DNA from: Carcharhinus longimanus
Taxonomy: Eukaryota
Assembly: GCA_030264375.1 (NCBI GenBank)
Contig: JASCQW010000032.1
Span: 45,772,490 to 45,836,489, forward strand
Length of the DNA stretch: 64,000 nt
Reading direction: 5' to 3'
The stretch's first letter is position 1; each line of letters opens with the position of its first letter. Shown here piece after piece: positions 3,001 to 18,000 of this stretch. A program made the position numbers.

Positions 3001-6000
3001 AGAAAGAAGGGTTGGTCGTTGTTTTTGATGTGAAAAAGTTTCATTTATACAACTATGGCAGATGTTTTGTAATAGTTATTGAGCACAAACCTTTTTGGGA
3101 CTTTTCAAAGAGTATAAGGTAGTCCCACCTATTGCCTCTGGTGCTGGGTCTTGTTACTTGCAGCATACAAATATCTTCTAGAGCACAACCCTGGAATCCA
3201 TTGAGTCAATGCCAATGCACTGTGTCACTTCCCATTGCCCACATGCCTGGTTTTACCAGCATTAGAAGAGTTTAAGTTACTTGTTGACCCTGCTGGTGTC
3301 CACAAGGCAGATTAAGGCCTGAGCATTGGATGCATTCTTGTCTAAACTAAGACATATGATCCTACACAGTAGAGTCCAAGGACAACCTCTGAAGAAATTA
3401 AACCCTACCTAACTAAGTAAGATGAGCTCAGCGTTGAGAACAGGATCATTCTTTGGGAGTCTTGTTGCTGTTCTGCTCCAGGACGTCATCCAATATTAAT
3501 GGGATCTCATAATGGCCAGAAATGGAAAATGGCTGGAAAATCTCTAGTAGTTCTGACAGCATCTGAGGAGAGGGAATGGAGCTAATGTTTTAAATCTGTC
3601 AACCAGCTGCAGCCTCTACTACTTTGATACCCAAGGTTCACTAAGAGGAAGTGGCTGCATCTGTTGCTGCCTTGCTACTTGCTGCATGTCTGTGAAGTGC
3701 TCACCAGACCGTATCATCTATTCTACAGATGCAACACAACCCACTGGTATCTGTGCTAGTAGAGATGTACAGAAATGAAAAGTGATGCAGTGGGGCTGCA
3801 TCCTGTGATCTTTCAATCGGCAATACTTTCCATTTATAAAGTAATGTCTCAGGCAAGAGAAGTGATAATGTATAGCTGGCTGCCTCCACTGCTGGCTTTT
3901 CCTGCAATACTTTTGAACATTTGGTGAGGGGGGAGGGGAAGAGGGGAAATGCTGGAGTCGAGGCTCATGCTATTCACTAGTGGGATGGGGCTGGAAAAAT
4001 CCCAAGATTCCTGAGAGAGCAAATCTCCATTCTGTATCATGGATTTCCCTTTCTCTGTAAGAAATTGCAGTTGTGAACAGACCTTTTTGAAGTCCTCTAC
4101 CAGAGAGGAGGTATGACTTTCATAGCTGTTCACTCAGTACCATTTTGTTCAAAAGGGTCTCCTCACACCTGCAGCTTCTAAGAGAGAAAAGGGGAAATCC
4201 CTGATGCAGAATGGAGTGCTACTGTGATTTCAAAGCTTGCCAGGGCATGAAAATTAAAGTGACCAGATCTCTCAAGCTTTCACAGATGACAGACAAGAAT
4301 GTTGAGCAGAGGAGAACTGCCTGAAATCATCATGCAGGAGTGATCATCAGGTCTGCCAGAGAGAGCTAGAAGAGGCAATCTAGCTGACAGTGCTGCGAAC
4401 AATACCTTGTACCCAGCCCGAGCCCATCCAACCCCAGGGAATCTTGGGGAATCCTCACTTTGCAGCCTGGCAGTGGCAGAGGGGAAAATAGCTACTGGTC
4501 CTACCTTCTTGACCCACCCCTTGGGGACCAACATGCTAGCCCATGGTGATCATTACCTCCCCACATCAGGGAAGAGGTGCATGGTGGGCTGCTGAACCGG
4601 TCAACGAGTCCGCCAATTATATTACAATTAGGTTTGCATAGGGCCCGACAGAGTGAATCGGGTGAATTCCAATTGTTTTCATGCCTGGCAGGAATCCCAA
4701 TCTTTAGCCCCACACCCATTCGGCGGAGCGTTGGGATTCCTGCGGGCCATCTGACTGAGCTGGAGAGCATGCCACCCCCGNNNNNNNNNNNNNNNNNNNN
4801 NNNNNNNNNNNNNNNNNNNNNNNNNNNNNNNNNNNNNNNNNNNNNNNNNNNNNNNNNNNNNNNNNNNNNNNNNNNNNNNNGACACCACCGCCCGCGCCCC
4901 CCCCCCCCCAACCCCCGCTCCTGGTGGATGCAGATACAAGAGCAATGTTTAAGTAGCGTCTTGACAGATCCATAAATAGAGGGATACAGACTGCATTAAG
5001 GCAAAAGATCTTTAGCTTAGAAAGACGTCACATGTTGGCACAGGCTTGATGGGCCAAAGGAGCTGTTTCTATGCTGTACTGTTCTTTATAAAACTAGTCT
5101 TAGACCAAAACAACTAACAGCTTATTCAAATTGCCTAATAATACCAAATTTGGTAGATATATTTTTAGTTTGTCAGTAATGATAAGGCTTCCTGGCATTG
5201 TGAATTGTTGTAAAAACACATCTATCCTTCAGGCCCACATGTGACTTCAAATCCACAGCAATGTCCACTGCCCTTTGAATTAATTTCATTTAGGACATTT
5301 CAGGAGAAAGGAGATTGAGAGGTGTTTCAGCATGTTTGTCTGAACTTGATTTGAATCCAAAGATGAAAGAAGTCCTGATTCAGAATATTCATTCAGTTCT
5401 TTTCCAGTTGGACTAATAATACCCATTTTGATATATAGTTCTTAATTTATCTGTAATGTTAAGACCTCTTGGCAATATAGACCATAGAACATTACAGTGC
5501 ACTACAGGCCCTTCGGCCCTCAATGTTGCGCCGACTTGTGAAACCAATTTAAAGCCCATCTAACCGACACTATTCCATATGTTTATCCAATGACCATTTA
5601 AATGCCCTTAATATTGGCAAGTCCACTATTGTTGCAGGCAGGGCATTCCACACCCTTACTACTCTCTGAGTAAAGAACCTACCTCTGACACCTGTCCTAT
5701 ATCTATCACCCCTCAATTTAAAGNNNNNNNNNNNNNNNNNNNNNNNNNNNNNNNNNNNNNNNNNNNNNNNNNNNNNNNNNNNNNNNNNNNNNNNNNNNNN
5801 NNNNNNNNNNNNNNNNNNNNNNNNNCAATTTAAAGCTCTGTCCCCTTGTGCTAGCCATCTCCATCCGAGGAGAAAGGCTCTCACTGTCCACCCTACCTAA
5901 TCCTCTGATCATCTTATATGCCTCTATTAACTCACCTCTTAACCTTCTTCTCTCTAACAAGAACAGCCTCAAGTCCTCAGCCTTTCCTTATAAAACCTTC

Positions 6001-15000: not shown

Positions 15001-18000
15001 CCTGGAGATAGAGAAGTTCATTACCATTATACTGTCTCTGACGTTTTTTTCTAAGAGATTGTGGACCTTAATTAGCCTCCTGAATCTGTTTTTGTTATCA
15101 AGATTGATTCTTGATATCACATGTTCAAGTCCAAGGAACCAATTATAGCTGCAGTACCTGCATGTTTAACATTGTATAACTCCTCTGTCAATTAGCAACA
15201 AAGACAAAAATTCTCCCCAAAAAATTCAGTATCGAATTTCGTGTAAAATCTGGAGTAAATCCCGCTGTTTTTTTTCAGCGGGTGCTTCAAAATGAATCTC
15301 CCACACTCTATGCTCCGCAGATTGCACAAGCGTAAATCAGTCCAAAAGTCAGTGGTTGGGCCTATTCCCTTGGGAGAGACTGGCAGCATAGCTCAGTTTA
15401 CTACCAAATAAACCTGTTGGACTTTAACCTGGCATTGTGAGACTTCTTACTGTGTTTACCCCAGTACAATGCCGGCATCTCCACATCACAGCTCATATGC
15501 TGGCCAGCTCTGCAATCCCTCCCACATCGTTAGCCTTGTGACCCCCCCACCCACCGCCATGGTCCGATTGCTGACCCCACTACCCCCCGGATGTGTCCAG
15601 GCCAGCCCCTACCACGTACTCCCCCTCCCAGCAGGCTGACACACCTCCCACCCTGATCATTGGTTTCCCTCCCTCTGTCAATCAGCTCGTGCAGAGTGGC
15701 AGTGGCACTGCCCTGGTGGGTAGTTCCAAGGTATCCCCTGAACATTGGCACATCCCCTTTTGGCAGAATCATGGCCAGACTGGCATTGCCAAGCTGGCAA
15801 TGCCCAAGAGGCACCCCCATCCTGGCACTCCCTCCTCAGGGGGGCTTCAGTTGCCCCCCCCTTCACTCCAGTGGGGTCAGGCTGCCAGCTCCCCGCAAGT
15901 GGGAAGCCACTGTAAACCCCACTGGAGTCGACCAGTCCTGGGGTGCTGGGGAGGGTGAGGGAGCAAGGTGACGCTAGGCCCGGAGATTTCAGTCCCAGGT
16001 CTGCTCATGAAATATAAAATAGATGGTAATGAACATTTGTATAATTTATTCAGCTCCATGCCAATTCCCAGCGTGAGATGATGGCACCGGAAATCTGGCT
16101 GTCGGAAAATTTGTGGATGCCGTGGCGCCAAGTGGACAGCCTGCGAAATGGCCTCACTCGAGTTTCTTGCCCTCTGCATTGCTTTTGTAACATAGCGGGA
16201 TGGGAGAATCGCTCCAAAAGTGTGCAATAGGTTTCATATATCTCCAGAATTGTGAATAATTATAAGAATTCCTGTTTGAATTATGCCACAAGATCTTTAA
16301 TGATTTAACACCTCATCCAAAGCACTTACTTCGCAATCGCACAGTGCACCCCCTTGATGCCCTGTAACATCAGTCTAGATTATGAGCTCATGCATCTTTA
16401 GAGATCTAACAAACAAAATAGGTGCACAGTAGGCCATTGGCCCTTGAGCTTACTCTGTCATTCAATGAGATCATGGCTGATCTGTTTGATGAGCTTAACA
16501 GCCGACTAATTGGAGGTGAGTTGGTTGTCAGCACCCCCACCACCTTCCCTTTAAAAATTCCAGCACGTTTCAGAGCTGCCAGAAGGCTGAGACACCGTTT
16601 GAGTACATAATTTTCAAAACGGCACCTGCACCTGGTGGCGGCACTTTATTGAAAATCCAGCTCCAAAATTGAGCGGTGGTGGATTGAGGAAAATTAAACT
16701 GAGCACAAACGTAATCTGAGCAAAAGGCTATTTGTTTTAATAATTTCAGTTGAATTTTGGTTTCAGAAAACTCTGCACCATCGAAAAGTGAACAGAAGAA
16801 ATTAACAAATCCAGAGTCAAAAAGATCTTCTGAGAAACATCGGAACACAGTTGTAAAGAAACAGCATGTTGAATCCAAGATGAATGGTAATTCTATTTTG
16901 TTTGTATGTTCATGGAATGTAGGCGTCACCAGCTGAACCAGAACCTATTGTGCATCTCTAACTTCCCTTGAAAAGGTGGTGGTTAGCTGCCTCCCTGAAC
17001 TGCTGCAGTCCATGTGGTGTAGGTACACCCACTGTGCTGTCGGGTGTGAAGTTCCAAGATTTTGACCCAGCAACAGTGAAGGAATGACAGTATATTTCCA
17101 AGTCAGGATGGTGTGTGGTTTGGAGGGGAACTTCCATGCGGTGGTGTTCCCATGCATCTGTTGCCTTCGTCCTCCTAGATCAGCGTTCTTCAAAGTGGAG
17201 GTCACGACTCACAGTGGGTCACGGGCTGTTGAAAATGGGTTACCAGTTAAATTATCGTTGCTCTATAAACTGATCTTGTTAAAAAAGTAGGATTTTCTGT
17301 GATCCCATTCAAAGAACACCGGATTTTCTGTGATCCTGTTCAAAAAAGCATGTGATTTTCCATGATCTGTTCAAAAAATGCAGTATTTTCTGTGACCCTG
17401 TTCAAACAAAGACAGGAGGTTGTGTGTATGTTGCACATTTTGTAGAAGACGGTATGATAATGACAACCTCTCGGATGATGACATAATCAGCATTAGGACT
17501 TTTGATGAGGAAAAGCTTAGTTGCCTGATACAATTCAAGTTATGTGCACTTTACGAAAGGGAAAGATAAGTAATAGGAAAGAGGTGTTTTTAAAGTGTAC
17601 AGTCAATCCCAATTAGATTGTGACTGTGGCAGCAGTACTGCAGCTTACCTGGCCTGTAGTCTCTTGTCTGAGTCTAGAATTTCCCGCCGTGAAGGCAGGC
17701 TGTAACTTCAGAGTATGACGCGTACGATCAGTATCTTATAATCCAACTCATTATTTTTCCTGTGTGCATAAAAAATATTATACTGAATCAACTTCAAAAT
17801 GAGATGACATCTGAAAACCATTGAGACGTTTTTTAATTATGGATATGTGTGAGAAAGGATAATCAACACATAACCACAGACTTCAATGGATGCAGCAAAA
17901 TATAGTTTATTGATGTGACATATCCCACTTATCAGGAAGGTTTACTAATAGGATGGTGCAGATAGAAGTAATTGATGCCTGCCTTATTAAGTTTCCACCT

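What the first reader, a model, noticed from the sequence alone, without database searches (positions are those of the whole stretch)
5290..16900. ERICH2-like N-terminus extended by tandem triplication of a symmetric Lys-rich exon
Seen: three paralogous exons (105, 120, 120 bp) all have TTTCAG acceptors, G|GTAATT donors and phase 1-1. All are stop-free, and the only indel is an in-frame 15-nt loss in copy 1. Their intron flanks are also triplicated but heavily diverged. They splice in frame onto the acidic exon at 22244. Inference: frame and splice-site conservation amid decayed flanks suggests selection. The result would be a basic repeat module (E..KKL.NPE..KKQ..ESK.N) upstream of an acidic tract, with each exon skippable in frame so that repeat number and charge could be tuned by splicing. 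I do not recall such repeats in the short human ERICH2.
[Added by the scan's program, not by the reader: the finding's places include an assembly gap (unread letters, written N; its length is only estimated) at 5724 to 5825, 6852 to 6951, 10521 to 10530. Whether the letters on both sides are continuous or in frame is not known: test that first.]
Basis: partly seen in the sequence, partly recalled or inferred. Interest (0 to 1): 0.75.

Follow-up and report, generated by a model that had tools for sequence, protein, structure and literature searches.

The report
Repeated coding exon in shark ERICH2
Three neighbouring copies of one small coding exon sit in a shark's version of the gene ERICH2; the same repeated exon is already present in the annotated gene of other sharks, so it is real but fairly ordinary.

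Summary
Exons at 8307-8411 (105 nt), 12288-12407 and 16767-16886 (120 nt each) share TTTCAG acceptors, G|GTAATT donors, phase 1-1 and a single open frame. All three assembly gaps lie in introns.

Searched exon by exon, they belong to the shark orthologue of ERICH2 (glutamate-rich protein 2), together with the acidic exon 22244-22470 and a core exon at 41685-41742.

The repeat is not peculiar to this genome. Existing gene models carry 3-5 copies in six galeomorph sharks and 1 copy in two squalomorphs. A partial Mustelus model carries 3. None of 15 non-shark ERICH2 proteins scanned has it.

The window's copies pair with positional counterparts in Mustelus and Scyliorhinus. A tree holding the three together is rejected (p-AU 0.004). 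So the duplications are old, and at least one more copy probably lies upstream of the window.

Paralogue pN/pS is 0.30-0.58, and the exons are more conserved than their flanks. The AlphaFold2 model gives the repeat region pLDDT below 50, and I infer disorder from that.

None of the 24 shark isoform models skips a repeat exon, so tuning by splicing has no support. Four text searches found no paper on it. Interest is low.

The parts
5122..8306 (+). Intron upstream of c1. It is the rest of duplication unit A, paralogous in pieces to the introns of units B and C. It holds the gaps 5724-5825 and 6852-6951 and a LINE-like insertion.
   Evidence: blastn self-matches 5122-5205, 5291-5478, 6271-6839 and 8067-8411 against unit B, at 69-85% identity. 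LINE-like minus-strand ORFs lie at 5570-6295.
8307..8411 (+). Repeat exon c1: 105 nt, phase 1-1, 34 whole codons, net charge +5. It has an in-frame 15-nt deletion relative to c2, c3 and its own counterparts in other sharks.
   Evidence: It groups with Mustelus r2 (99/92) and S. torazame r2 (99/90), and is 91% identical to Mustelus r2 over 34 columns.
8412..12287 (+). Intron between c1 and c2 (unit B), with the 10-N gap at 10521-10530.
   Evidence: Collinear matches to unit C at 66-75% identity and to unit A. One HSP spans the gap.
12288..12407 (+). Repeat exon c2: 120 nt, phase 1-1, 39 whole codons, net charge +3.
   Evidence: It groups with S. torazame r3 and S. canicula r2 (85/54) inside a c1+c2-type clade (95/79).
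12408..16766 (+). Intron between c2 and c3 (unit C). It has no gap.
16767..16886 (+). Repeat exon c3: 120 nt, phase 1-1, 39 whole codons, net charge +6. It is the last copy of the array; its downstream intron has no paralogue.
   Evidence: It groups with S. torazame r4 and S. canicula r3 (91/74).
22244..22470 (+). Acidic exon: 227 nt, phase 1 to 0, with 20 D/E in 75 residues. It ends in the start of the conserved ERICH2 core (APIELMGE).
   Evidence: It is 60-68% identical to shark ERICH2 over the whole exon, with tblastn E down to 1e-25.
41685..41742 (+). Next ERICH2 exon: 58 nt, phase 0 to 1, with a GTAAGT donor. It encodes the first core helix (FLKAIMDRDYKL...).
   Evidence: tblastn 78-83% identity to shark ERICH2. 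Splice sites were read. The following exons were not found in the window.

Best explanation
The three features are genuine, normally included coding exons of the shark orthologue of ERICH2 (glutamate-rich protein 2), transcribed on the + strand.

They arose by tandem duplication of a unit of about 4 kb consisting of an intron plus one exon. The exon is symmetric (phase 1-1), so every added copy stays in frame.

The duplications are old, older than the split between this species and Mustelus or Scyliorhinus. The window therefore shows copies 2-4 (or 3-5) of an array whose first copies and N-terminal exons lie upstream of the window.

Each copy adds about 40 residues of a lysine-rich, net-basic segment that I infer to be disordered (motif E..KKL..PESKRSSEKQQN..VKKQHVESKM). 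This segment precedes the acidic tract and the small helical ERICH2 core.

What is shown: exon anatomy, paralogy, positional orthology and moderate purifying selection. What is inferred: inclusion in mRNA in this species, from models of other species only, and the role of the module. My best guess for the role is a charge-patterned spacer or electrostatic binding region whose length differs between shark lineages.
For: - Anatomy and single open frame.
- Paralogous introns.
- Exon-wise matches to shark ERICH2: 2 of 93 candidates at E<=0.01 for the acidic exon, and 8 of 590 candidates for the repeat region of Heterodontus ERICH2.
- HMM copy counts: Heterodontus 4 (3 of 3 models), Chiloscyllium punctatum 5 (4 of 4), C. 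plagiosum 5 (3 of 3), S. torazame 4 (3 of 3), Rhincodon 4 (2 of 2), S. canicula 3 (2 of 2), Heptranchias 1 (3 of 3), Pristiophorus 1 (4 of 4). The partial Mustelus model has 3.
- Models named like an independent non-RefSeq annotation (scyTo_0006627, chiPu_0015286) hold the repeats too.
- Tree: WIN_c1 with Mustelus r2 (99/92), and the one-clade hypothesis for the window copies is rejected at p-AU 0.004.
- pN/pS is 0.30, 0.58 and 0.58; NG86 dN/dS is 0.22-0.48.
- Exons are more conserved than their flanks.
- A profile of the three window exons run against 1.84 billion cluster representatives found 5 proteins at E<=0.001. Three are shark ERICH2-type proteins. Two are marginal (E about 3e-4: a planctomycete MAG protein and a crayfish mucin). 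The module is therefore not a transposon or a common domain.
- AlphaFold2 model of S. torazame X1: residues 85-244 (the repeats) have 10-residue block mean pLDDT of 34-48 and almost no secondary structure. Only about residues 311-372 are confident.
Against: - No transcript data for this species could be consulted. Support for inclusion rests on predicted models of other species, whose RNA support I could not see.
- Two of the three paralogue comparisons give pN/pS 0.58, not significant on their own (p=0.07 and 0.09). The exons are short (34-39 codons).
- c1 carries a lineage-specific 15-nt deletion, and S. canicula models lack the c1-type copy, so that copy may be dispensable.
- The tree rests on 40 columns and many forks are unresolved. 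The one-clade test was named after a first tree had been seen.
- Low pLDDT suggests disorder but does not prove it.
- Mouse Erich2 knockouts are fertile (passages of PMC7401030), so the gene's function is unknown even in mammals.
Confidence: 0.85

Rival explanations
1. The copies are alternatively spliced cassette exons. Because each is phase 1-1 and all junctions read GAA or GAT, the cell varies repeat number and net charge by skipping.
For: Symmetric phases and identical junction bases make every skip in frame. The donors (ATG|GTAATT) are not perfect consensus sites (my reading of the sequence). S. canicula models have 3 copies against 4 in S. torazame. The Mustelus model stops two codons after the c1-type exon.
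Against: 0 of 24 isoform models in 8 shark species differs by a repeat exon. All isoform differences lie in the first exons or at the 3' end. The S. canicula difference is the same in both of its models, so it looks genomic or an annotation miss rather than an isoform.
Confidence: 0.12
2. One or more copies, c1 above all, are decaying pseudo-exons. They would be relics of segmental duplication that are open only by chance and are not part of the mature mRNA.
For: c1 has a 15-nt deletion. The c1-type copy is missing from S. canicula models. Exon divergence of 19-33% is not far below that of the best-aligned intron stretches at 24-34%. 11% of intronic 120-nt windows have a given frame open.
Against: c1 has the lowest pN/pS (0.30, p=0.005). 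It is 91% identical in protein to Mustelus r2, and its deletion is in frame. Splice sites are intact in all three copies. Joint neutral retention in two copies was 0.4-1.2% in simulation, before counting indels.
Confidence: 0.06
3. The triplication is an assembly artefact of a gappy draft, for example haplotypes or a collapsed repeat laid out in tandem.
For: The window has 12 N runs, three of them in the region.
Against: The copies differ by 19-33% in the exons and more in the introns, far beyond haplotype divergence. Each copy has its own counterpart in other species' chromosome-scale assemblies (contig sizes). Unit C has no gap at all.
Confidence: 0.01

Closest known systems
Shark ERICH2 gene models: S. 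torazame XP_072331941.1 (4 repeats), Mustelus asterias XP_078083830.1 (partial, 3 repeats), Heterodontus, Chiloscyllium, Rhincodon and S. canicula
   Same: They share the same 40-residue repeat, the same position between the N-terminal exon and the acidic exon, and the same junction residues (E between copies, D before the acidic exon). The window's copies are positional counterparts of their copies.
   Different: The window shows only the last three copies. c1 lacks five codons. Protein identity to the nearest counterparts is 74-91%, so this is another species.
ERICH2 of squalomorph sharks (Heptranchias perlo, Pristiophorus japonicus)
   Same: They have the same gene, core and acidic exon, and carry the repeat module.
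   Different: They have one copy only in all 7 models. The array of 3-5 copies is seen only in the galeomorph models sampled. The direction of change (gain or loss) is not settled, because no outgroup model was informative.
ERICH2 of bony vertebrates and echinoderms (for example rat, Xenopus, turtles, catfishes, sea urchin)
   Same: They share the conserved core (21 invariant columns from A315 to L358 of the alignment) and acidic tracts on both sides of it. In mouse and human the gene is testis-enriched, and the mouse knockout is fertile (passages of PMC7401030).
   Different: 0 of 15 scanned have the repeat. Their N-terminal regions are unrelated in sequence. Human was not examined.
Tandem exon duplication as a general source of protein repeats or of mutually exclusive exons (recalled general knowledge, not from a call)
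   Same: Adjacent paralogous exons of equal phase with paralogous flanking introns.
   Different: Here all copies appear to be included together, giving a repeat array, rather than being chosen one at a time.

Membership tests
ERICH2 (glutamate-rich protein 2) orthologue | Conserved core (APIELMGEFLKAIMDRDYKLSSKLCQMILIYEPEN...), invariant from echinoderms to mammals | tested here: met
   The first part of the core is encoded at the end of 22244-22470 and in 41685-41742, at 78-83% identity. The exon for the second half (ILIYEPEN...) was not found in the window.
ERICH2 (glutamate-rich protein 2) orthologue | Acidic tract directly upstream of the core | tested here: met
   20 D/E in the 75 residues of exon 22244-22470. 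It aligns over its whole length with shark ERICH2.
ERICH2 (glutamate-rich protein 2) orthologue | Acidic Ser/Asp/Glu-rich C-terminal tail | not testable with these tools
   No match in the window. It presumably lies downstream of base 64000 or in a gap.
ERICH2 (glutamate-rich protein 2) orthologue | Conserved gene neighbourhood (synteny) | not tested
   No eukaryotic genome collection was available. The window holds no other recognisable gene.
Shark ERICH2 repeat array | A module of about 40 residues matching the repeat HMM, located between the N-terminal exon and the acidic exon | tested here: met
   hmmsearch E=2e-15 to 2e-23 for the three window ORFs and nothing else in the window. The order relative to the acidic exon is as in the orthologues.
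Tandem exon duplication | Adjacent paralogous exons of the same phase with paralogous flanking introns | tested here: met
Tandem exon duplication | The copies are included in mature mRNA | not testable with these tools
   No RNA data. Support comes only from predicted models of other sharks.
Alternatively spliced cassette or mutually exclusive exons | Isoforms that differ by inclusion of the exon | tested here: not met
   0 of 24 shark isoform models in 8 species. Absence from models is weak evidence.

The most novel reading that the evidence does not exclude
The basic repeat is a shark-specific invention. It was amplified from one copy (as in squalomorphs) to 3-5 copies in galeomorph sharks and then kept under selection for a very long time. 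Copy number still changes between lineages: S. canicula models lack the c1-type copy, Chiloscyllium and Mustelus have a shortened first copy, and the window's c1 has lost five codons. If shark ERICH2 is testis-enriched as in mammals, this would be a case of lineage-specific length and charge evolution of a disordered region in a reproductive protein. Splicing might additionally modulate copy number.
Probability: 0.25. Interest if true: 0.4.

Novelty: new member of a known kind. Interest (0 to 1): 0.25.

Why it matters
For annotation, the finding places three small exons, the acidic exon and one core exon of ERICH2 in a gappy draft sequence. It also warns that the gene starts upstream of the window.

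For biology, the point is modest. A protein of unknown function, conserved from echinoderms to mammals, has gained a lineage-specific array of basic, probably disordered 40-residue modules in sharks, by the textbook route of symmetric-exon duplication.

The repeat is already present in public models of nine other shark species, though no paper in the searched library mentions it. A specialist would not be much surprised, and no long-standing question is opened.

Tried and rejected
- Pfam scan of the four exon translations: only sub-threshold noise (NOA36 E=0.57, WTF E=0.21).
- PDB sequence search with S. torazame ERICH2: 0 hits.
- ESM Atlas with the repeat region: no usable hit by features, and every structural row had TM below 0.5 on a low-confidence model.
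- A candidate N-terminal exon at 3509-3541 (tblastn E=1.7-4.7) runs into a stop right after the match. I rejected it as chance.
- A weak match to the 'ILIYEPEN' exon at 40143-40196 (E=6-13) lies upstream of the preceding exon. Rejected.
- Search for further or degenerate repeat copies in the window by blastn, nhmmer and a six-frame HMM search: none.
- The two marginal hits of the representative search (a planctomycete MAG protein and a crayfish mucin-19, E about 3e-4) were looked up by name only. I took them for compositional matches and did not examine them further.
- Pfam on ten long ORFs of the window: only two weak reverse-transcriptase matches below the curated cut-off. My guess that the 192-aa ORF at 37642-38220 is a transposase found no support.
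- One call failed on a coordinate slip and was corrected.
- Complex prediction, fold search, Rfam, the phage, plasmid and E. coli collections and genome contigs (prokaryotes only) were not used, because they do not bear on a shark gene.
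Full report
**Check of the observation**

Reading the sequence and a script place the three exons at 8307-8411 (105 nt), 12288-12407 (120 nt) and 16767-16886 (120 nt). 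All three have a TTTCAG acceptor and a G|GTAATT donor. Only the frame that corresponds to phase 1-1 is open in all three; the other two frames hold 2-6 stops each.

A protein-guided codon alignment shows a single indel, 15 nt missing from c1. The window has 12 runs of N. The three inside the finding (5724-5825, 6852-6951, 10521-10530) are all intronic, and the nearest ends 1355 bases before c1 begins. One blastn HSP between unit B and unit A runs across the 10-N gap with almost equal lengths on both sides. The flanks of 5724-5825 both lie in a LINE-like ORF on the minus strand. For 6852-6951 only the order of the flanks is conserved relative to unit C. No gap was filled, and an exon hidden in a gap cannot be excluded.

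**Is it more than chance?**

In the intronic sequence of 5290-17000, 1165 of 10326 windows of 120 nt have a given frame open. In a substitution-only drift simulation starting from c2, a copy kept the open frame and both splice dinucleotides in 6-11% of runs at p=0.24-0.30. Two independent copies did so in 0.4-1.2%.

Exon identity is 81% (c1-c2), 67% (c1-c3) and 75% (c2-c3). The 300-nt flanks give 70-76% for c1-c2 and 33-51% for the pairs involving c3. Longer alignable intron stretches are 66-75% identical. pN/pS is 0.30 for c1-c2 (Fisher p=0.005) and 0.58 for each of the other two pairs (p=0.07 and 0.09). NG86 dN/dS is 0.22-0.48.

blastn, nhmmer and a six-frame HMM search find exactly three copies in the window's read letters.

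**What it is**

- The acidic exon 22244-22470 (227 nt, phase 1 to 0) found two proteins among 93 candidates, both named glutamate-rich protein 2: Heterodontus francisci (E=9.5e-16, 68% identity) and Chiloscyllium punctatum.
- tblastn of these and further shark proteins against the window maps the three repeat exons, the acidic exon and one more exon at 41685-41742. That exon has phase 0 to 1 and a GTAAGT donor, and encodes the start of the ERICH2 core.
- The N-terminal exons, an r1-type repeat and the exons after 41742 are not in the window. A weak match at 3509-3541 ends in a stop and is chance.

**The repeat elsewhere**

The repeat region of Heterodontus ERICH2 found 8 proteins among 590 candidates, all from sharks. 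The conserved core found 87 of 89 candidates, from sharks to echinoderms.

I fetched all shark models, including the cluster members. I also fetched 15 of the 79 non-shark proteins, chosen for taxonomic spread. An unnamed 'lgn' hit and any human record were left alone.

A repeat HMM gave these counts:

| Species | Copies | Models agreeing |
|---|---|---|
| Heterodontus francisci | 4 | 3 of 3 |
| Chiloscyllium punctatum | 5 | 4 of 4 |
| Chiloscyllium plagiosum | 5 | 3 of 3 |
| Scyliorhinus torazame | 4 | 3 of 3 |
| Rhincodon typus | 4 | 2 of 2 |
| Scyliorhinus canicula | 3 | 2 of 2 |
| Heptranchias perlo | 1 | 3 of 3 |
| Pristiophorus japonicus | 1 | 4 of 4 |
| 15 non-shark ERICH2 proteins | 0 | all 15 |

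- The 80-residue S. torazame fragment P0100 was left out of this count.
- The only ray model (Rhinoraja) is partial, with a retroelement-derived N-terminus, and says nothing either way.
- A profile of the three window exons, run against 1.84 billion cluster representatives, found five proteins at E<=0.001. These are Rhincodon and Heptranchias ERICH2, a 181-residue 'uncharacterized protein' of Mustelus asterias, and two marginal hits that I take for compositional matches.
- The Mustelus protein is the N-terminal part of ERICH2. It has a shortened first copy, an r1-type copy and a c1-type copy, and it stops two codons into the intron.

**Age and order of the duplications**

In a tree of 33 repeat units (40 columns, so many forks are open):

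- WIN_c1 groups with Mustelus r2 (99/92) and S. torazame r2 (99/90).
- WIN_c2 groups with S. torazame r3 and S. canicula r2 (85/54).
- WIN_c3 groups with S. torazame r4 and S. canicula r3 (91/74).
- The c1+c2-type clade is sister to one orectolobiform copy type (88/93).
- Holding the three window copies together costs 34.5 log-likelihood units (p-AU 0.004). This group was named after a first tree had been seen, although it is the natural null hypothesis.

So the copies are positional orthologues and the duplications predate these species splits. The source species is a relative of Mustelus and Scyliorhinus, and its array very probably continues upstream of the window.

One copy in the two squalomorphs against 3-5 in the galeomorphs fits an expansion in galeomorphs. 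The polarity is not proven.

**How it probably works**

Each copy is net basic (+5, +3, +6), and the next exon has 20 acidic residues in 75. An AlphaFold2 model of S. torazame ERICH2, built with an 18-sequence alignment, has mean pLDDT 48. The repeat region (residues 85-244) has 10-residue block means of 34-48 and almost no secondary structure. Only about residues 311-372, the three-helix core, are confident.

I therefore read the array as a disordered, lysine-rich spacer or electrostatic module placed before an acidic tract. This is inference.

Symmetric phase explains how copies could be added, lost or shortened in frame. Skipping would also be in frame. However, none of the 24 isoform models differs by a repeat exon; they differ at the first exons and at the 3' end.

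**What is known**

- 38 papers in the library mention ERICH2 (listing only).
- Passages of PMC7401030 say that Erich2 is testis-enriched in mouse and human, and that a 31.5-kb deletion leaves male mice fertile. I did not read the whole text, and its supplements are closed.
- No paper holds 'glutamate-rich protein 2' with 'shark' or 'ERICH2' with 'shark'.
- A looser search listed nothing relevant among its 15 shown of 4,598 papers.
- No PDB relative was found, and there was no usable Atlas lead.

**What stayed unchecked**

- RNA evidence.
- Any shark, ray or chimaera genome DNA.
- The human protein.
- The closed collections metagenome contigs and viral contigs.
- Genome contigs holds prokaryotes only and was not used.

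**Verdict**

The event is not a private triplication. It is part of an old repeat array of shark ERICH2 that is already present in public gene models. The splicing idea has no support so far. Interest is low to modest.

Noticed in passing
Protein P0109 (Mustelus asterias XP_078083830.1), compared with window 8303-8413: This 181-residue 'uncharacterized protein' is the N-terminal part of ERICH2. It stops two codons after the c1-type exon, that is, it reads into the intron. It is either a split or truncated gene model, or an intron-retaining or early-terminating transcript.
   Followed up: partly
Proteins P0007 and P0101 (S. torazame isoforms X2 and X1): Isoform X2 lacks 24 residues that fall inside the most conserved part of the ERICH2 core (the ILIYEPEN... 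exon). This would be an in-frame skip of a different, non-repeat exon.
   Followed up: no
Protein P0013 (Rhinoraja longicauda ERICH2 model): The N-terminus of this model looks retroelement-derived (precomputed Pfam PF09004) and runs straight into the acidic exon. The model is probably chimeric, so the ray state of the repeat is unknown.
   Followed up: no
window 5570-5987, minus strand, around the gap 5724-5825: LINE-like ORF pieces lie on both sides of the gap, and the residues next to the gap on the two sides resemble each other. The true gap may therefore be very short. Nothing was filled.
   Followed up: no
window 43779-44072 and 45749-46003, plus strand: Two ORFs give weak reverse-transcriptase matches (RVT_1, E=3.5e-5 and 2.1e-5, below the curated cut-off). 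The long introns are full of retroelement debris. Eight other long ORFs had no Pfam match.
   Followed up: partly
Alignment A1: The ERICH2 core has 21 invariant columns across sharks, tetrapods, a teleost, a crinoid and a sea urchin. It is the only confidently folded part of the model (three helices). It has no Pfam family and no PDB relative.
   Followed up: partly
window 15401-15458 against 6974-7031, and 39816-39959: A short element is shared at 78-91% identity between introns of units A and C and a distant site in both orientations. It is probably a small interspersed repeat rather than unit homology.
   Followed up: no
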